Source: a virus
Lineage: Duplodnaviria > Caudoviricetes
Length of the DNA stretch: 40,048 bases
Reading direction: 5' to 3' (one strand)
Virus record (IMG/VR): IMGVR_UViG_3300010048_000023
Span: 1-40,048 of that record
A program made the translations under genes and the position numbers. Shown here one piece after another: positions 17,985 to 38,340 of this stretch (its first letter is position 1; each line of letters begins with the position of its first letter). The notes under the pieces are model-generated. The model saw only the letters and a program-made list of their open reading frames with translations, was not told the origin of the DNA and did no database searches.

Positions 17985-18346
17985 TGCGGAAGATCGTGGG
18001 CGATGCGTTCTGGCAGATTTTATATCACGAGCGGATGCTTGCGCGCGCGCATGGGTTTCTTGCTGTCGTGCGCGCTCTGGTGACGCGCGTCGGCATACAA
18101 GTGACGGACGAGGGTGCCCGAGACACCTACGAGGCAAACGAGGACGAGTGCGAGTGCGAAACGCCGGTTGAATTGTTGGCTTATCTCTTGGGGCGCGCGA
18201 TGAATGACATTGAGCATCATGAAACTCAGTTGCGTGGCGCCCACAACAGCATGGCGTTGACGAAAGGGTTGGCTGAGCGCGCCAGGATCGAGGTGCCGAT
18301 GGGGGAGATTGAAGCGGAGGAACGCAAGCGCCTGGCAGCGTCGTAA
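17963..18346 (+). CDS. Hypothetical protein
   Basis: GAGGGGG RBS; start reassigned. Confidence 0.6.
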   Translation: MADECELMRKIVGDAFWQILYHERMLARAHGFLAVVRALVTRVGIQVTDEGARDTYEANEDECECETPVELLAYLLGRAMNDIEHHETQLRGAHNSMALTKGLAERARIEVPMGEIEAEERKRLAAS

Positions 18347-18349
18347 ATT

Positions 18350-18370
18350 GTCCGTTTGCAGAGGTGGCCA
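18350..18370 (+). repeat. Intergenic repeat copy 1, GTCCGTTTGCAGAGGTGGCCA
   Basis: Exact 21-mer present three times. Confidence 0.95.
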
Positions 18371-18371
18371 G

Positions 18372-18566
18372 ATGGAGATTGAGCAACCGTCGTTTCAGCC
18401 ACTCTGGCTCCGGTGCAACACTTGCAATCACGCTTGGGATGATTGGCAGCCGATGCTGGTGCCGGTGAAAACGTGGGTTGCGCACGTGAGGAATTTGCAT
18501 TGCCCATATTGCGGCGTCGGTGCCAAGCAAATCTATCTGCGCACCGCGCCGCTGAAAGAGGACTGA
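18372..18566 (+). CDS. Zinc-ribbon protein (64 aa)
   Basis: CNTC...CPYC; bounded by repeat copies 1 and 2. Confidence 0.7.
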   Translation: MEIEQPSFQPLWLRCNTCNHAWDDWQPMLVPVKTWVAHVRNLHCPYCGVGAKQIYLRTAPLKED

Positions 18567-18589
18567 CCGTCCGTTTGCAGAGGTGGCCA
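18563..18589 (+). repeat. Intergenic repeat copy 2 (27-mer CTGACCGTCCGTTTGCAGAGGTGGCCA)
   Basis: Identical to 19664-19690. Confidence 0.95.
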
Positions 18590-19092: not shown

Positions 19093-19667
19093 ATGCGCTG
19101 CGCAGCCGCGACTGGCGTCTGCTCGTCTCCCGTGCCGGTGTCTGGCGCACGGAGGGATTTGAGCACTACGCACTGGACAATGGCGCGTGGGCGGACTTCC
19201 AGGCCAATAAATCATTTGACGAAGATGCGTTTGAGCGGCTGGTGGAGCAGTTTGGCAGCAGAGCTGACTGGATTGTGCTGCCGGATATCGTGGCTGGAGG
19301 CCTCGACAGCCTGCGCCTCAGTGTGCGCTGGCTCAACCGCTGCTTGTCGCTGTGTCCGCTGGTGCTGCTCGCGGTGCAGGACGGCATGAGCGAGGCGGAT
19401 GTGGCATCGATCGTCGGGCCGAATGTCGGTGTATTTCTCGGCGGCAGCACGGAATGGAAACTCGCCAACATGCAGCGCTGGGGTGAGTTCTGCGCAGCCC
19501 GGCGGCTGCATTACCACGTGGCGCGCGTCAACACTGAGTGCCGGTTCCGGCTGGCTGCGGCGTCCGGTGCGACCAGCATCGATGGCAGCTCGGCGAGCCG
19601 CTACGCGGTGACGCTGCCGTTGGTGGATTTGTGGTCGCGGCAGCGGGATCTGTTCGCGCCATGCTGA
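19050..19667 (+). CDS. TGT/DpdA-like (queuine tRNA-ribosyltransferase fold) protein
   Basis: YALDNGAW, VLPDIV, AVQDG, FLGGSTEWK, HVARVN, SIDGS motifs. Confidence 0.65.
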   Translation: MLCYASRTGTRRNLDALRSRDWRLLVSRAGVWRTEGFEHYALDNGAWADFQANKSFDEDAFERLVEQFGSRADWIVLPDIVAGGLDSLRLSVRWLNRCLSLCPLVLLAVQDGMSEADVASIVGPNVGVFLGGSTEWKLANMQRWGEFCAARRLHYHVARVNTECRFRLAAASGATSIDGSSASRYAVTLPLVDLWSRQRDLFAPC

Positions 19668-19690
19668 CCGTCCGTTTGCAGAGGTGGCCA
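19664..19690 (+). repeat. Intergenic repeat copy 3
   Basis: Identical 27-mer; its last A is the A of the next ATG. Confidence 0.95.
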
Positions 19691-31233: not shown

Positions 31234-31701
31234 TCAGGCAATCGACAGCGTCCCGCTGTTGTTCCACACGGAACCCGCCGGCAGTCCCGTCTTGGAGGTG
31301 GGAATACCGCTGAGCACCAGCGAGCCAGTTGCCGTCACGGTACCCGTGAATGTCGGGCCGGCGAGAGGCGCGCGGCTAGTATCTGTTGGATGCACGTGAT
31401 CCCCGCGGCTGTAACCTGCCGCTATGCCCGGAGCTGCCGTCCCGTTCATTGTCGGCGCGGACGTATATGGCGCCGCGGAAGCAGCAATGGTGCCGCTGGT
31501 AATGGTAATGGTGCTGCCGTCCACCTTCACGACGCCCGCCGTGCCGGTGCTGGCAACCGGCAGGTTGGCAACGACGTAGGTATTCACCTCCGCCATCGTG
31601 CCGTGATAGGCGGTCGTGCTGCCGCTGCGTGCCACCGGCACCATGTCGGTTCCGACGAGTGTGGCGATATCGGCGGCCGCGCTGATCTTCGTGTCAGCCA
31701 A
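31234..31701 (-). CDS. Tail fibre-like small structural protein
   Basis: MADTKISA, GVVKVDGSTITI, SRGDHVHPTDTSRAPLAGPTFTG fibre motifs. Confidence 0.7.
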   Translation of the reverse strand: MADTKISAAADIATLVGTDMVPVARSGSTTAYHGTMAEVNTYVVANLPVASTGTAGVVKVDGSTITITSGTIAASAAPYTSAPTMNGTAAPGIAAGYSRGDHVHPTDTSRAPLAGPTFTGTVTATGSLVLSGIPTSKTGLPAGSVWNNSGTLSIA

Positions 31702-32257
31702 GTATCCAACTCCCGCTGCCGTCCTCTAGCACCCAGTGCCCGCTGCCGTCCTCGAGCGTCATAGTGGACGTGACCAGACTGGACGTGCCTATGCTCAACA
31801 CGCTGCCGTTGAGCCACGGCATGCCGCCGCCAGGGTCCGTGGTTGGCAGGAACAACAGATTGCACTGCGCCCACAGCGAGCAGAGTTGGCTCTTCAGCAC
31901 GTAATTTGCCAAATCGGCTGACGTTGCGCCGTTACTAATTTGGAACTGCAACCCGTTGTCCACCGATGCCCGCTGGTTCGCTTCCGTCTGTATTGCCCGC
32001 TGCAATGCCTCGTCCGCCGTCTGCCGCGTCGAGGCCTCCGTCGCCAACTCGATGCCGAGCGTCTGGTCACCGGAGGCGCGCGCGGTTTCCTCCGCGTTCA
32101 GCTCGTCCTGCAACTGCTCCATCGACAGCCCGACAGTGCCGCCAGTGCGCTGTGCCATGCCGGCAAAGAAGCGGCGCCATTCCGGCCGCACCTCGCCGGT
32201 CACCGGGTCGGTCAGTGGCGATGTGGGCAGCGTCAGCGTGAGAGGGTTAGTGGCCAA
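31694..32257 (-). CDS. Tail needle-like coiled-coil virion protein (gp26-like)
   Basis: PLTDPVTGEVRPEWRRFF, then E...R..AD..L repeats; probable TTG start. Confidence 0.6.
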   Translation of the reverse strand: MATNPLTLTLPTSPLTDPVTGEVRPEWRRFFAGMAQRTGGTVGLSMEQLQDELNAEETARASGDQTLGIELATEASTRQTADEALQRAIQTEANQRASVDNGLQFQISNGATSADLANYVLKSQLCSLWAQCNLLFLPTTDPGGGMPWLNGSVLSIGTSSLVTSTMTLEDGSGHWVLEDGSGSWILG

Positions 32258-33008
32258 AGGCGATCCAGCAGAATGAGGACGTGGACGGATGCACAGCGTC
32301 GTCCGCCAGGGGGATGCTGCACCACACGTCGAAGCCTGCAGCGTCATACGTCACCGTGAACCACTGCGCGGACAGGTCGCTGCCAAGGTGGGTGACCGAC
32401 ACGGCAAGAGTGCCGGTGGGGAATGCGGTATCGTAGGTCACGCGCTGGTGCCCGCTGGTATCCGTGAAGCTGGTCCCCGTCTTCGGTTGGCCGGCAATCT
32501 GCGCCGCTAGTGCGGCTTCCGCAGCTTCGGCTCTCGCTATTTCCGCATTGAGGTCGTTGCGAAGCGATGTCTCTGCGGCTGTAGCGCGCGATATCTCATT
32601 ATTTAAATTCGTCGTTAGTGTTGCCTCTGCGGCCTCCGCTCTTGCGATCTCCGCATTGAGTGCTGCGGTGCTATCGACAATGCCCAATAGCGTCTTTGCA
32701 TTGGCAATCGTGCCACTGACTACCGGCTGCATCTCTGCGGAGACGACGCTACTCGTCCAGCCGTCATACACGAGATTGCCACCCACATCGCGGACGATGA
32801 CCCGATAATCGCCGGAACCCAGGAAGAAGCAGCGGCCCGCTGCATCAAGTGTGATGGGGTTTGTGTTGAGAGCCGTGCCGCCCGGATCAGTCCACGTATC
32901 CTTCGGCGTCGTCGTGCCGGGTATCAGCGTCTGTACTGTGCCGCCAGCGTAGGGATGACCATCAGCGTCGATCCACTGCGCCATCGGGGGGTTCATAGGA
33001 AGGGCCAT
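32247..33008 (-). CDS. Tailspike/fibre with a P22-like head-binding domain
   Basis: GHPYAGG...TTTPKDTWTD...NTNPITLDAAGR; EIARAEAAE coiled coil; C-terminal beta domain. Confidence 0.8.
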   Translation of the reverse strand: MALPMNPPMAQWIDADGHPYAGGTVQTLIPGTTTPKDTWTDPGGTALNTNPITLDAAGRCFFLGSGDYRVIVRDVGGNLVYDGWTSSVVSAEMQPVVSGTIANAKTLLGIVDSTAALNAEIARAEAAEATLTTNLNNEISRATAAETSLRNDLNAEIARAEAAEAALAAQIAGQPKTGTSFTDTSGHQRVTYDTAFPTGTLAVSVTHLGSDLSAQWFTVTYDAAGFDVWCSIPLADDAVHPSTSSFCWIAFGH

Positions 33009-33020
33009 AACGTCGCTCTC

Positions 33021-35624
33021 TCAGGAAGACCCGATGAAGACCAGGCCAGGTGTGGTGTATTGAGTGTCGGTCACGATGATGGCGATGGCGTCGGCTTCGT
33101 CCGTCCACACGCCATCAGCGCGAAGCCACCTTCCATCCCACGACCGCTGGCACTGCAAGATGATCGCGCCGCCACGGAATGTCGCAACGACGTTGAAGCG
33201 GCCAGACGGGATCGTGCCGAGAGCAATGCTCCAGGCTCTGCTGGTGCCTAGCACAGTGAGTGTCAGCGAATACTGCGTTCCATCCGCACTGATAGCCACG
33301 CGATAGCCGTGGGTCGTATCGGTGGCGCGGGCAATGATGAACGTCGAAGCGGCGGCCGGCACGGTCGTATAGTCGCTGGGAATGACACTGAACCGCACCA
33401 CGTAATCCGCCGTCGTGAGATCGGCATTGCTCTGGTAGATGCCACTACCTACAAGCTGGTCGCCAACGATTTGCGCCATGCCGGACACCATTGTCCACGC
33501 GCCCACGTCGTCTGGATTGCTGTAGAGCTGCAACAGCGTGCCATCCGTGGCCGTGAAGCTGGTGCGGATTAGTTCCTTCTCGTCAATGGCAACGGAGGTC
33601 CAACCGGTTTCCATGTCCGCGACAAATTGCCGATAGAACACACGGTCGGACTGGTTGATCATATGCGGCCAAGCGCGCAGTCGCTTAATCGGCGCGCCGT
33701 TATCGGTGTATTCGTCCAGCGTCAGCTCGTAGAGGTTGCCATTCTCCCAGTCGCCGCAGACGACAACGCCGTTGCACGGATAGCAGCAATTAGCGCGGTG
33801 CCTGTGTTCCCGTCCGTTGGTATCGAGCCACACCCATTCGTGCCAGAGGCTGGTGCTAACGTCATACACCCATGTTGCGTCGGCCTTCGGAAAGGTCAGC
33901 ACGTAGAATGTATGGCCAGCGAGCTGGTAGGTAAAGCCGATAGCATCGTTGATTGTGTCGTATTCGGATATCGTATGCTCAATGGCAAACGTGCTGACGC
34001 GCTTCGTCTGGTATCCCGCCCCCTGCAGCACAATACCCTTGCCGGCGCGATCATACGACAGCCAGAAGACGCTGTTGTCGTAAACTGCGACGCTATACTT
34101 CGCGACAATGCCATGGTCGATGAACGTTGATGGCACGGCCTGGAAGGGAAAGTCCGGTGCGCCGACATTGGCGAATATCTCTGTCGTGCGCTCGCCGAAT
34201 AGCCATATTTCGCGTTTGACCACGGCGAGTGTCCGCAGCAGGTCGCTGAATGCCTCTTTGTTCGCGAACCACAGCGGGTCGAAGGTGAGCGCCAGGCTAT
34301 CGGACGAATAGAATTGCGGCGTGTTGGGTTTGTTGAACAGCAGATAGGTGTCGAGGTAATCCACCCTATCGGCGCCATACCAAGCGCTCATATCCGGCTG
34401 AACGACTAATGAGGTGACGGCAATCGGTGTCTGCCCGGTTGTGAGCTTATTAGGATGAACAACCGGGAATGACGGATAGGCCGTATTGCCGGACCAGCCG
34501 GTGCCAGAGGTCATGCCGTAAGTGACTGAAGCATCCTGGCTGATGGCGCCGACCAGGTTCTCTCCGATGCTGGGGGTATATGGCGTAGGAAACGTAAGGG
34601 TTATCGTTCCCCCCGCGACAGAGGTCGCGTCGGACGAGGTCGCTCGTACGATGCTGAAGTCGCTGTTATAAATAGCAACTCGTATATGCGCGCCGGCTGT
34701 GTATGTATTGACAGTGACGGTATTGATGGGACTGCTGGTGAGGGCAACGAACGGGAGATAGATGACATTATTGGCGGCAATCGCGACGCGGCTCACTTCC
34801 GGCGCCGAATTGATGGCTACTGGCAGATGGCTGGCTAGGCCGTTCGCGGGAGCGAATGGGAACGACGAGTAAGCGGTATTGCCTGATGAGGCCCCGGTAC
34901 CGGCGGCCATTCCGTAGGTAACCGAGGCGTCTTGGTCAATGGCGACAAAGAGGTTAGAGCCTTTGGTAGCTTTGTATGGCGTGCCAAAGGTAAAGGTTAT
35001 GCTCCCTGACGCGTTCGACGCCACTTCGGCTGACGTAGCTTCTGCGACGCTGAAATCGCCGCTGTAGATTGCTGCCTTGCAATGAGCGCCAGACGTATAT
35101 GTGTTGACGGTGAGTGAATTGATTGGGCCAGTGGCGGCGGCGGTAAATGGCGTATAGGTTACGATGTTAGCCGCCACTGCGGCCCGGCTCGCTTCGGCGT
35201 CGGTGCTGGTTATGGGGTCAGTGATCTTGTGGAAGCTGTTATCCGCCAAATGCACATACCAGCCACCGCCGGAGCCATCGACAATGACGAGGTCTGTGCC
35301 GTTATCCTGCATGCTGACGGGGGTGCTGCGTCCCAGCATGATGTCGCCGAGATGCGTGCCGGCCCATGTCGTAGGATCGATAAGGTAGACGCCTTCAGCC
35401 GCCACAGCATAAATCTGGCCAGTCGTCGCCTGCTTTATAGCGCGGATGCCGAGCTTCGGCAGTGTGTTGAGCAGGCGCAGGCCTGGCGTAGGGTAATGCG
35501 CGACTGGTGCCGGCTCGCCCTGGCCTTGAGGCATTGGCTCAGCGAAAAGATTAACACTGCGCTGTGCGCTGGCGACCACGCTGCGTGCTTCGTATGCGCC
35601 TCCGGTCAGGGGGACAGTCGGCAT
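33021..35624 (-). CDS. P22 gp10-like packaged-DNA stabilisation/tail hub protein, N-terminal part with inserted domains
   Basis: YPTPGLRLL, VSMQDNGT, IWLFGERTTE, RVSTFAIE, GHTFYVLTFP..TWVYD..WHE, GDWENGNLY, FVADMETG; the usual C-terminal motif is absent. Confidence 0.88.
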   Translation of the reverse strand: MPTVPLTGGAYEARSVVASAQRSVNLFAEPMPQGQGEPAPVAHYPTPGLRLLNTLPKLGIRAIKQATTGQIYAVAAEGVYLIDPTTWAGTHLGDIMLGRSTPVSMQDNGTDLVIVDGSGGGWYVHLADNSFHKITDPITSTDAEASRAAVAANIVTYTPFTAAATGPINSLTVNTYTSGAHCKAAIYSGDFSVAEATSAEVASNASGSITFTFGTPYKATKGSNLFVAIDQDASVTYGMAAGTGASSGNTAYSSFPFAPANGLASHLPVAINSAPEVSRVAIAANNVIYLPFVALTSSPINTVTVNTYTAGAHIRVAIYNSDFSIVRATSSDATSVAGGTITLTFPTPYTPSIGENLVGAISQDASVTYGMTSGTGWSGNTAYPSFPVVHPNKLTTGQTPIAVTSLVVQPDMSAWYGADRVDYLDTYLLFNKPNTPQFYSSDSLALTFDPLWFANKEAFSDLLRTLAVVKREIWLFGERTTEIFANVGAPDFPFQAVPSTFIDHGIVAKYSVAVYDNSVFWLSYDRAGKGIVLQGAGYQTKRVSTFAIEHTISEYDTINDAIGFTYQLAGHTFYVLTFPKADATWVYDVSTSLWHEWVWLDTNGREHRHRANCCYPCNGVVVCGDWENGNLYELTLDEYTDNGAPIKRLRAWPHMINQSDRVFYRQFVADMETGWTSVAIDEKELIRTSFTATDGTLLQLYSNPDDVGAWTMVSGMAQIVGDQLVGSGIYQSNADLTTADYVVRFSVIPSDYTTVPAAASTFIIARATDTTHGYRVAISADGTQYSLTLTVLGTSRAWSIALGTIPSGRFNVVATFRGGAIILQCQRSWDGRWLRADGVWTDEADAIAIIVTDTQYTTPGLVFIGSS

Positions 35625-35625
35625 A

Positions 35626-36651
35626 CTATGTTTTCGGGCTTGTGTCGGCTTCTATCCACGCGCCCTGCAGCACGGTCTTGGCTGGACAGGACCAGAAAAT
35701 CTGGAATACGCGATCCCTCGCGTAGCCCAATCGCTGCCATTGCACTGAATCCAGATAATAGCCTCGCGGCCCCATGTCCTGGCCCACCGGACTGCCCCAG
35801 ACGTGGCCGCGATCGTTCGACCATTGCAGAAACACGCGGCAGCCAGGCGTGGGGATGGTGATCAGGCTCATATCGTCCATGGCCATGATCGCCGAGCCAG
35901 GTGCGGGCGGTGGCGGCGGCGGTGGTGAAGGAGAATTGCAAGATCCGTCCGGCAGAAAAACCAACGTCCCGTATATATTAAAACTGCCGCCTGTCCCATT
36001 ATTGCTGGCGAAGTTGCTTGGGTTCGTATCGCCTGGACGCACTGTCAGATAAATCGGCGGCTGGGTTCCAAGTGGCGTGCTGCCCGTCGCACCGAGATCG
36101 ACCGGAGACAGATCGGCATTGATAAACTGCCGCCGATTTGCGACGACTGAAAGATCGAAGAAACTAGTCGGTGCTGCCAGGAATATGTCGCCGACGCCTG
36201 TCCCTGGCGCGTGAGAACCAGAGGCGCCGAATTGCCACTGTGTAAAGCCCCCAAGATTGAAGCCAGCGGGTGAGCCTGTCCAGCCACCGGAGGTCAATGC
36301 CAGCGGCGCATCATTAGCGTAAATCTGGATAATCCCTCCAACCCCATCAATCGATATCAACAGATGGGTGAAATAGCCTCCTGCCGCGTATGCGAATGAG
36401 CCATCGAACATCGTGGGTTGCGACTGCCCCGGCAGCAAATGCACATGCACTTGACTGTTGTTTAGACTGAAATTGCCAAATACGACTGAATTATTAAAAT
36501 CAACCGCGCGGTTCGCACCATCGTTGCCTAGACATATCCAGCCGCTAAACAGCAAATAGCGAAATGTCGCAGGAAACCCGGCGCGTCCTACGTTGATCAC
36601 TCCAGAGGCATTCCACTGAAGGATGACCTCACGGACGGAATAGCCAGCCAC
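35626..36651 (-). CDS. Beta-rich domain + Pro linker + gp10 C-terminal segment
   Basis: Ends VFLQWSNDRGHVWGSP..MGPRG.Y..VQWQRLGYARDRVFQIFWSCPAKTVLQGAWIE. Confidence 0.8.
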   Translation of the reverse strand: MAGYSVREVILQWNASGVINVGRAGFPATFRYLLFSGWICLGNDGANRAVDFNNSVVFGNFSLNNSQVHVHLLPGQSQPTMFDGSFAYAAGGYFTHLLISIDGVGGIIQIYANDAPLALTSGGWTGSPAGFNLGGFTQWQFGASGSHAPGTGVGDIFLAAPTSFFDLSVVANRRQFINADLSPVDLGATGSTPLGTQPPIYLTVRPGDTNPSNFASNNGTGGSFNIYGTLVFLPDGSCNSPSPPPPPPPAPGSAIMAMDDMSLITIPTPGCRVFLQWSNDRGHVWGSPVGQDMGPRGYYLDSVQWQRLGYARDRVFQIFWSCPAKTVLQGAWIEADTSPKT

Positions 36652-36664
36652 TAGGTCACCATGA

Positions 36665-36874
36665 TCAGGCCATTATCATAATGCTGGCGCCACTGGCTGT
36701 GCTCGCCGCTACGACAGTGGCCCATTGCTCAACAGCCATCTGTGTGACAATGAATTGAACGCTGTCGGATGTCACAGAAGACCATTCCTCTAGCGCGATT
36801 TGCGTTACCCATAATTGCGATGGCGTGGACGCCCATTGCTCGACGGCAATCTGGGTAAGATTGTAATCGGTCAT
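36665..36874 (-). CDS. Small virion-associated protein with three TQxAxE(Q/E)W repeats
   Basis: Internal triplication; ATGA coupling. Confidence 0.7.
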   Translation of the reverse strand: MTDYNLTQIAVEQWASTPSQLWVTQIALEEWSSVTSDSVQFIVTQMAVEQWATVVAASTASGASIMIMA

Positions 36875-38340
36875 GAGATCAGGTTCGGGCCAATTGATAT
36901 GCTATTCACAGCCGTCGCGGTCCACGTTGCGCCCGTATTCGGGTCCGTCGTATCCGTTCGCCACAGCCAACCCCAGCTTGTTCCCAGTGCGGTCGTCGTG
37001 CTCTGCACGGTAGTGGCGCCGGATTTCAGTTGCAGCGCACCGGAGCGCGCCCCCGCGTCGCTCTTCTCGACAAATCCCCGCGTCGTGACAGCGACGACAG
37101 ATGTCGGCGTGCCGGTGATTGCGGCAATGGCATATAGGTCGTTGTGGCCCACAGTGCTGTCGAAAACGTAGCTGGTGGCGCCGTCCTGCTGGGTTTCGTT
37201 GACGAGTGAGGTGCCATCAGTTGCCGTGAATACGGCAGTCGATAAAGGCGCCTGCTGCAAAGTGGAAGTACTCGGACTTGAGACTGGAAAGCTGGCATAA
37301 GATGTGGCGCTGCTCAACCCGCTGGTGCCGGTGGCGTTCCAAGTGCCAGAACTTGTGTCTGAACAGAATCCGAGAAAGAACACTGTGCCTTTAGTCAGCG
37401 TGGCTGGGGTCGGAAAGGTGAAAGTATTGACGCCAGTGACAGGATTGGAGATCGCTGTTGCGGTTGCCAGAACCGCGCCCACAGCACCCGCATTATAGGC
37501 AAAGACCGCGCACTTCATGTTTCCTGTATAGCCAGCGTTCAAAGAAACTGTTGCCGTTCCTATCGTGCCGTTACAGGGAGCGGTAGTTGCATTCGGGTAT
37601 CGGGCGCTGCCTGCGGTAATAGCGCCACCGGCTCCCGCCGTTCCCGCCGTTGCCGTCATCGGCGCACCCGAGAACTGATGTTGCACGTCGCTCGCTGGCA
37701 TGCGCGTGTAGCAGCGGATATCGCCCACCCACGGAACGGACGCCGCGTCGCTGCGCCAGAGGAAGTCGTCGATCAGCTGGGCATTTACCGCGGCGTTCAT
37801 GCCGATAGTAACTTTGTTGGCATAATTGTTAGCGCTGACACGGGTGTTCAGCGAACCCAACGTAAAGTCATTCGACGTATTGCCATTCTTACGAACCGTA
37901 AAGCTGCCGGTTGCGTTGTTAATGACAACCTCGAACTCGAAGGCAAACCATGAATTAGCTGCGGTGACCGCACCTGTATAGGTTGCCAACACAGTGCCGC
38001 CGGGAGTGCCGCTGGTGAGCAGTATCGCACCGTCACTGCGAAAGACGATACAGCACTGACCTGTCGTGCCATCGAGCAACTGAATATATAGACCCAGCGT
38101 CGTGCCAGAGAGGGCAGCCGTCTGCTGGAATGCGACAATGACGTGATGCACTGGATCAGTAGTGACAGTTGATGCCTTCGTCAGTGATCCTGTTGTGCTA
38201 TTCCACCCCAAGCCACGGCTGCCGGTAAATCGTCCAGTCACCAACCCACCGCCGGGGGCAACTCCACTATCCCAATAACCTGCGATAGCATCCGAAAATG
38301 CCGCATAGAGGTCGTAACCATCTCCAAACACAAATGCCAT
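36871..38340 (-). CDS. Tail/structural beta-rich protein
   Basis: Thr/Gly-rich; contains a third copy of the domain duplicated in the gp10-like gene. Confidence 0.7.
   Translation of the reverse strand: MAFVFGDGYDLYAAFSDAIAGYWDSGVAPGGGLVTGRFTGSRGLGWNSTTGSLTKASTVTTDPVHHVIVAFQQTAALSGTTLGLYIQLLDGTTGQCCIVFRSDGAILLTSGTPGGTVLATYTGAVTAANSWFAFEFEVVINNATGSFTVRKNGNTSNDFTLGSLNTRVSANNYANKVTIGMNAAVNAQLIDDFLWRSDAASVPWVGDIRCYTRMPASDVQHQFSGAPMTATAGTAGAGGAITAGSARYPNATTAPCNGTIGTATVSLNAGYTGNMKCAVFAYNAGAVGAVLATATAISNPVTGVNTFTFPTPATLTKGTVFFLGFCSDTSSGTWNATGTSGLSSATSYASFPVSSPSTSTLQQAPLSTAVFTATDGTSLVNETQQDGATSYVFDSTVGHNDLYAIAAITGTPTSVVAVTTRGFVEKSDAGARSGALQLKSGATTVQSTTTALGTSWGWLWRTDTTDPNTGATWTATAVNSISIGPNLIS

What the first reader, a model, noticed from the sequence alone, without database searches (positions are those of the whole stretch)
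33021..36651. Split and order-permuted P22 gp10-like tail hub gene
Seen: ORF 35624-33021 has the gp10-family motifs up to RVFYRQFVADMETG (about 33600), then an unrelated beta-rich domain and a stop. The motif expected after that point (LxWS.D.G..W...MG..G.Y...W.RLG.ARDRVF..S.P.K..L.GA) sits instead at the end of the upstream ORF (about 35850-35626), behind a different beta-rich domain and a PSPPPPPPPAP linker. The two ORFs are 1 nt apart. Knowledge (from memory): in gp10-like proteins these segments are contiguous in one chain. Inference: the hub is assembled from two polypeptides encoded C-part first, and each free end displays an extra, possibly receptor-binding, domain. This would be a way to add modules to a podovirus tail hub.
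Basis: partly seen in the sequence, partly recalled or inferred. Interest (0 to 1): 0.82.

Follow-up and report, generated by a model that had tools for sequence, protein, structure and literature searches.

The report
Reversed two-gene phage tail hub
In this uncultured short-tailed phage the tail-hub gene is cut in two and the pieces sit in reversed order, so the hub is likely built from two separately made proteins that interlock and likely hang a swappable lectin-fold domain on the tail; a split hub with a different cut has been solved in one unrelated phage.

Summary
ORF-N (35624-33021) carries the gp10/Hc3 hub to profile position 402. The upstream ORF-C (36651-35626) ends with positions 408-470. 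No intact copy lies elsewhere in the window, and a second assembly spans the locus unchanged.

The split is a clade trait: 34 of 37 split-locus rows are collinear. The reversed order occurs here and in one diverged phage, L086, under purifying selection (dN/dS 0.07). Reversal excludes frameshift or readthrough, so two chains are required.

One correction: the cut lies inside an inserted ConA-like domain. ORF-N lacks its last strand, which ORF-C carries. That strand is present in 20 of 20 ConA-bearing hubs and 1 of 57 others. The free passenger is ORF-C's LamG/pentraxin-fold domain, swapped among relatives.

Binding is inferred; the complex prediction could not be run. A split nozzle is solved in Pseudomonas phage A1002 (PMC13730344). 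This scan noted the same split on other DNA (15 notes), and a reversed nozzle once. New variant of a known kind.

The parts
35626..36651 (-). ORF-C, 341 aa: passenger domain + Pro linker + last strand of the ConA-like domain + hub C-terminal segment
35929..36645 (-). ORF-C residues 3-241: LamG/pentraxin-type jelly roll, the exchangeable passenger
   Evidence: AlphaFold2 pLDDT mostly >90; VIA Z 14-15, rmsd 3.0-3.6, 180-200 aligned to pappalysin LamG-like domain, BACOVA_03559 and pentraxins
35899..35931 (-). Proline-rich linker, ORF-C residues 241-251
   Evidence: sequence; Pro-rich in most of 38 aligned homologs
35857..35889 (-). ORF-C residues 255-265 (MAMDDM motif): predicted last beta-strand of ORF-N's ConA-like domain
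   Evidence: motif in 20 of 20 ConA-bearing hubs, 1 of 57 others; fused L020 aligns to ConA-like folds through this strand; pLDDT <50 in ORF-C alone
35629..35838 (-). ORF-C residues 272-341: gp10/Hc3 C-terminal segment (apical, adaptor-facing domain strands)
   Evidence: PHROG 578 positions 408-470; weak match to Pan3 hub 9vyg 377-415
33021..35624 (-). ORF-N, 867 aa: hub N-terminal part with two insertions
35214..35624 (-). ORF-N residues 1-137: hub N-terminus and first propeller blades
34395..35213 (-). ORF-N residues ~138-410: inserted pair of beta domains, absent from the 13 aligned ConA-bearing homologs at this site; related to the middle of the 489-aa ORF at 36871-38340
   Evidence: 33% over 161 aa, E 3e-8 pairwise
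33603..34394 (-). ORF-N residues 411-674: propeller core ending in RVFYRQFVADMETG
33024..33587 (-). ORF-N residues 680-867: ConA-like (GH43_C2 / PF06439-type) domain lacking its last strand
   Evidence: Atlas structure TM 0.64-0.77; 12 of 13 homologs stop right after the same penultimate strand

Best explanation
The phage encodes its P22 gp10-type tail hub as two genes in reversed order, and the two proteins likely interlock into one hub subunit: ORF-C's last ~87 residues would complete both the adaptor-facing domain and the lectin-fold domain that ORF-N leaves unfinished, which would hang ORF-C's LamG-fold domain on the tail as a likely surface-binding module. History (inferred): a ConA-like domain was inserted into a variable loop of the hub's apical domain. 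That domain's penultimate loop then took passengers and was cut by a stop-start junction. Once the chains were made separately, gene order became free, and in this lineage the C-part gene moved upstream. Shown: split, complementarity, order, folds of the single chains, conservation and passenger swapping. Inferred: binding, six copies per virion, host-surface binding.
For: Complementary, non-overlapping profile and BLAST ranges. No intact gp10 elsewhere in a contig that holds terminase, portal, scaffold, coat, adaptor and an ejection gene. 28 of 69 non-self homologs cover >=90% of ORF-C; two of these are pieces of fused forms. Natural single chains keep both orders of insertion: hub-ConA-end in L017, L020 and L024-L029, hub-LamG-end in L011. 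The LxxD[ND]V strand tracks the ConA domain: 13 of 13 split and 7 of 7 fused ConA hubs, 1 of 51 fused and 0 of 6 split hubs without it. In fused L020 all ten structural matches end at residues 646-652, past that strand at 636-643. Alone, ORF-N's conserved residues 1-8, 653-657 and 660-682 and ORF-C's 253-268 have pLDDT <50. In Sf6 the apical domain is made of N- and C-terminal extensions and inserts between adaptors (PMC9728967, passages). Second reversed genome L086, with an opposite-strand HNH gene between the parts; module 84% identical, dS 2.4, dN/dS 0.07, while its passenger is 33% identical. Collinear junction offsets vary (-1, -4, 0, +1), and three loci have no adjacent junction (L120, L124, L164). 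Precedent: A1002 gp39/gp42 complementation by cryo-EM (PMC13730344, section 9).
Against: No experiment, proteomics or expression data. The strand motif was defined after seeing the sequences, and related phages are not independent, so the Fisher p of 1e-17 overstates the case. Low pLDDT of isolated pieces is suggestive only. The structural match of ORF-N to Sf6 gp8 runs to chain residue 437, further than the expected cut near 400, although it ends at 366 in Pam1 and the segment concerned is low-confidence. L086 is a 3.3-kb contig whose last ~45 bases leave the gp10 sequence, so only 66 codons of its N-part are seen. The virus record is classed linear and 59% complete. No ligand is known for either jelly roll.
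Confidence: 0.84

Rival explanations
1. ORF-N works as the hub on its own and ORF-C is an optional accessory that merely kept a hub-like tail.
For: ORF-N's propeller and ConA-like domain are predicted with high confidence without ORF-C. Some relatives carry two C-end genes (L016/L110, L262), so a given one may be dispensable.
Against: The missing segment supplies strands of the adaptor-docking domain in solved hubs. The segment is under purifying selection. A C-end gene was found beside the N-part in the 37 split rows; N-only loci L001, L002 and L176 are cut by contig ends.
Confidence: 0.07
2. A decaying temperate phage: the rearrangement broke gp10 and the locus is a relic.
For: The genome has an integrase and a repressor. 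HNH genes are frequent and one sits between the parts in L086.
Against: Both frames are intact. The reversed order is shared by two genomes at dS about 1-2.4 with dN/dS 0.07-0.08. The same cut recurs in 13 dereplicated split ConA hubs.
Confidence: 0.04
3. One covalent chain is restored by recoding, RNA or protein trans-splicing, or a DNA rearrangement.
For: 27 of 34 collinear rows have a -1 or -4 overlap, which on its own would fit a -1 frameshift.
Against: The reversed order cannot be read through. Near-identical L009 and L010 differ in frame (0 versus +1). No intein or Hint family was matched. No long repeats flank the genes, and the contigs show no joints.
Confidence: 0.03
4. The reversed order is an assembly artefact.
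For: The only run holding the stretch may be the window's own source, and only contigs were available.
Against: A second assembler gives the same 7-kb stretch. L086, another contig with a 54% identical C-part, shows the same order and the same two upstream genes. The junction is a clean stop-start.
Confidence: 0.02

Closest known systems
P22 gp10 / Sf6 gp8 / cyanophage Pam1 and Pan3 tail hub (PHROG 578 Hc3; Pfam PF11134; PDB 8u10, 8eap, 7sg7, 7eeq, 9vyg)
   Same: Sequence family, interrupted beta-propeller fold (Foldseek E 8e-14 to 2e-10; VIA Z 31.9, rmsd 3.9, 390 aligned to 7sg7), place in a P22-type module after the adaptor and before needle-like and ejection genes.
   Different: Those are single chains of 442-472 aa without inserted jelly rolls. 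Here the family is on two genes, C-part first, with three added domains.
Split nozzle of Pseudomonas podophage A1002, nozzle-base gp42 + nozzle-rope gp39 (PMC13730344; abstract, passages and section 9 read)
   Same: The N-part carries most of the propeller. The C-part ends in the platform strands and carries extra domains at its N-terminus. The two complement by beta-strand addition (shown by cryo-EM there).
   Different: In A1002 the cut is in the fibre-dock region and gp39 also supplies two incomplete propeller blades (152 aa). Here the C-part gives ~70 aa of the apical domain plus one strand of an inserted lectin fold. By gp numbering (my inference; the paper has no 'gene order' passage) A1002 is N-part first; here it is C-part first. 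Different phage group and passenger.
SU10 nozzle gp17 (PMC9509320; passages read)
   Same: Extra beta domains inserted between propeller blades 2 and 3, about where ORF-N has its 138-410 insertion (position matched by inference from the model's strand order).
   Different: Single chain; no relation shown between the inserted domains.

Membership tests
P22 gp10 / Hc3 tail hub | Match to PF11134 / PHROG 578 | tested here: met
   ORF-N 25.9 bits against cut-off 25; PHROG 578 E 2e-90 for ORF-N and 3e-7 for ORF-C
P22 gp10 / Hc3 tail hub | Interrupted beta-propeller core | tested here: met
   Top Foldseek and VIA hits are Pan3, P22, Sf6 and Pam1 hubs
P22 gp10 / Hc3 tail hub | Apical domain made of the N- and C-terminal extensions of one chain | tested here: not met
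   The C-terminal extension is on a separate, upstream gene. It works like gp10 only as a pair.
P22 gp10 / Hc3 tail hub | Context: portal, coat, adaptor, needle and ejection genes of P22 type | tested here: met
   P22_portal, P22 coat, Ad3 adaptor, DNA-ejection PHROG 598; the needle assignment of 33008-32247 is recalled, not shown
P22 gp10 / Hc3 tail hub | Hexamer on the adaptor ring in virions | not testable with these tools
   needs particles
A1002-type split nozzle | Nozzle on two genes with complementary N- and C-parts | tested here: met
A1002-type split nozzle | C-part supplies propeller blades and a rope that docks fibre dimers | tested here: not met
   ORF-C has a compact LamG fold and only ~87 complementing residues; ORF-N's propeller strands run to about residue 646
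A1002-type split nozzle | Physical complementation of the two chains | not tested
   the complex-prediction queue was full
Split-intein fractured genes | Intein halves at the new termini | tested here: inconclusive
   No intein or Hint Pfam match at E<=0.1; the terminal domains have ConA/LamG folds. No dedicated intein profile was run.
LamG/pentraxin and ConA-like lectin domains | Jelly-roll fold | tested here: met
LamG/pentraxin and ConA-like lectin domains | Carbohydrate or receptor binding | not testable with these tools
   fold only; 5-15% identity to solved chains

The most novel reading that the evidence does not exclude
The ~87-residue end of ORF-C is a portable plug. Any gene that ends in it, wherever it lies and in whichever order, is locked into the hub at up to six copies by completing two half-folds at once. 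That makes the P22-type hub a plug-and-socket display system for exchangeable host-binding heads, and genomes with two plug genes (L016/L110, L262) would build mixed tails. The reversed genomes are the natural proof that the socket works in trans.
Probability: 0.45. Interest if true: 0.7.

Novelty: new variant of a known kind. Interest (0 to 1): 0.5.

Why it matters
For collinear split hubs one can always argue for a frameshift or readthrough. The reversed order, kept in two diverged genomes, removes that reading and makes the two-chain hub close to certain on genomic grounds. It shows that an essential, normally single-chain tail part tolerates being cut in its adaptor-facing domain. It points to a host-range route that uses the hub rather than tailspikes or fibres. 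It also gives a small testable pair (ORF-N with ORF-C 242-341). The score is moderate because a split nozzle is already solved in A1002 and binding here is not shown.

Tried and rejected
Complex prediction of ORF-N with ORF-C 242-341 could not be run because the queue was full; this says nothing about binding.

Searches for more reversed genomes found none beyond L086. These were P0002 and P0072 as queries, the N-part alignment (stopped after 5 of 64 parts, best 80 of 582 kept) and two degenerate patterns (read). Gene order on the contigs of the closest protein pairs (P0002/P0073, P0003/P0075, P0044/P0072, paired only by equal contig length) could not be read.

No record among 50,697 GenBank phages covers 80% of either ORF; 4 records match only the hub end of ORF-C. 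Pfam names neither jelly roll. The idea that the 69-aa ORF at 36874-36665 is fused to the plug in L164 found no alignment and was dropped. Promoter and terminator scans were at chance level. Repeats give no recombination or misassembly signal at the locus.

The N-core tree (73 sequences, 392 columns, midpoint root, several weak nodes) mixes split and fused states. I take it only as a hint of repeated fission or recombination; no clade test was run.

Literature: searches returned one split-nozzle paper and none on a reversed gp10 split. Subscription papers are mostly not searched, and I opened no supplements (A1002's gene map may be there).
Full report
Setting. The window is a whole 40,048-base virus record with a P22-type portal, coat, terminase, scaffold, adaptor and an ejection gene, plus an integrase and a repressor. 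It is thus a temperate P22-like podophage; the one run that holds it is labelled soil metagenome. On the minus strand the order is adaptor (39860-39099), 252 aa, 489 aa, 69 aa, ORF-C (36651-35626), ORF-N (35624-33021), then a 253-aa gene and the ejection genes.

The observation. ORF-N matches PHROG 578 (Hc3) up to profile position 402 and ORF-C matches positions 408-470. The two tile natural single-chain hubs without overlap: L003 3-394 and 405-467, L017 4-595 and 670-755. A permissive tblastn finds no other hub copy in the window. One Logan contig spans 31105-38151 without a difference or a joint; that run may be the window's source, so it tests the assembler, not the sample. The record is classed linear and 59% complete, but it is as long as several related contigs (about 41-42 kb), and coat and adaptor, near neighbours in relatives, lie at its two ends.

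The split is a clade trait. Of 69 non-self homologs of ORF-C, 28 cover at least 90% of it; two of those are pieces of fused hubs. The C-terminal domain of ORF-N has 13 homologs, 12 of which stop right after the same strand; one is truncated. I scored all 172 loci with four home-made profiles. There were 37 rows with N- and C-parts on different ORFs, many of them duplicates across collections. Of these, 34 are N-first and 3 are C-first: the window, L084 (the same contig) and L086. Splits are a minority overall: among 85 further loci, mostly fetched with the N-part, 83 are fused, one is cut by a contig end and one is split.

Where the cut lies. In solved hubs the position is a loop of the apical domain (Pan3 369-377, Pam1 about 362-372). 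In Sf6 this domain is built from N- and C-terminal extensions of the propeller and inserts between two adaptor subunits (PMC9728967, passages). In this clade a ConA-like domain is inserted in that loop (Atlas TM 0.64-0.77 to ConA-like models). Eleven loci keep it in one chain: the ConA body, a 40-75-residue loop, a strand of the form LxxD[ND]V, then the hub end. In fused L020 all ten structural matches run to residues 646-652, past that strand at 636-643. ORF-N stops where the loop begins, and ORF-C carries the strand at 255-265 (59% identity to L017 670-755). After dereplication at 90% the strand is present in 13 of 13 split and 7 of 7 fused ConA hubs, and in 1 of 51 fused and 0 of 6 split hubs without ConA. 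Fourteen rows whose N-end was off the locus were left out. The motif was chosen after viewing the data and relatives share it, so this is strong but not independent evidence.

Folds of the single chains. ORF-N folds as a gp10-type propeller, but its conserved apical segments 1-8, 653-657 and 660-682 have pLDDT under 50. ORF-C 3-241 is a confident LamG/pentraxin jelly roll (Z 14-15), while 253-268 is under 50 and the hub end about 60-80. Against my reading, the match to Sf6 gp8 reaches chain residue 437, beyond the expected cut; it ends at 366 in Pam1, and only end points are given. The pair itself could not be modelled.

The passenger is exchangeable. The end module (254-341) is 83% identical to P0013 and 75% to P0044. 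Residues 1-240 are 33% identical to P0013's, and P0044 has an unrelated repeat-rich domain there. GC3 is 0.55 in the passenger and 0.74 in the module. The same passenger family also occurs inside fused hubs (L011, P0036) and in proteins without the hub end.

What the reversal adds. In collinear loci 27 of 34 junctions are -1 or -4 overlaps, which alone would allow a frameshift reading. Others are 0 or +1 (near-identical L009 and L010 differ), and L120, L124 and L164 have no adjacent junction. Here and in L086 the C-part comes first, which no frameshift or readthrough can join. L086 shares the two upstream genes (69% and 59% identical) and has an opposite-strand HNH gene between the parts. Between the two genomes the end module has dS 2.4 and dN/dS 0.07, and the first 66 codons of the N-part have dS 0.97 and dN/dS 0.08. 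The order has therefore lasted under selection. L086 is short and its last bases look chimeric. Close kin differ: in L085 the C-part is followed directly by the 253-aa homolog, and in L002 no C-part precedes the N-part, so the reversal looks recent and local (inference).

Mechanism. Shown: two intact genes, complementary sequence, folds, conservation and swapping. Inferred: the two proteins are made by coupled translation (one base between stop and start); ORF-C's end adds the missing strands to ORF-N's lectin-fold domain and apical domain; the completed subunit hexamerises on the adaptor; the LamG head on its proline linker points outward and probably binds a host surface polymer. Confidence 0.84 for the two-chain hub; about 0.55 for a host-binding role of the head.

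Comparison and novelty. Pseudomonas phage A1002 has a cryo-EM-proven split nozzle in which gp39 fills the platform and two blades missing from gp42 (PMC13730344: abstract, passages and section 9). I was led to that paper by earlier notes of this scan and read it myself. The cut site, passenger and phage group differ, and by gp numbers A1002 is N-first (my inference). I also saw passages of PMC9509320 (SU10 insertions between blades 2 and 3) and PMC10386132 (nothing on a split hub in the passages shown). My six literature searches showed no reversed gp10 split. The scan holds 15 notes on split gp10 hubs in other genomes, several describing the same nested cut, and one on a reversed nozzle; these are unchecked AI notes and are not counted as support. 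Verdict: real, a new variant of a known kind, interest 0.5.

Noticed in passing
L016:6771-9399 (= L110); L262:3626-4398: Two separate downstream genes each end in the hub C-terminal module, so alternative or mixed plugs are possible.
   Followed up: partly
window 31756-31703; L017 residues 608-660: The loop that fused relatives carry at the cut site holds two copies of an LEDxSGxW-type motif that also ends the window's 217-aa ORF (31694-32347). A docking-peptide role is recalled from memory, not tested.
   Followed up: no
window 35213-34395; L015, L019, L038, L112, L124, L142: A second insertion site early in the propeller holds about 140-150 aa in several relatives and about 275 aa (two domains) here; it is related to the middle of the 489-aa ORF.
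   Followed up: partly
L120, L124, L164, L021-L023, L001: Splits at the same loop without the ConA domain. In L124 the hub end is a 75-codon frame 3.6 kb downstream of the N-part; L164 lies in a Rhodopila MAG contig, a hint at an acetobacteraceal host for the clade.
   Followed up: partly
window 36874-36665: 69-aa ORF made of three TQ[IM]AxExW-type repeats; similar segments end or precede genes at this position in relatives.
   Followed up: partly
window 4224-3616, 2401-1787, 29488-28970: Three HNH endonuclease genes inside the structural module.
   Followed up: no
window 18344-18370, 18563-18589, 19664-19690: Three copies of a 27-nt direct repeat (two identical) about 1 kb or more before the integrase gene.
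   Followed up: no
window 31099-29481 and 26503-25625: A hydrolase/GNAT fusion and an Asp/Arg-hydroxylase-like cupin lie between the tail and ejection genes; an SLT + CHAP protein follows the ejection genes.
   Followed up: no
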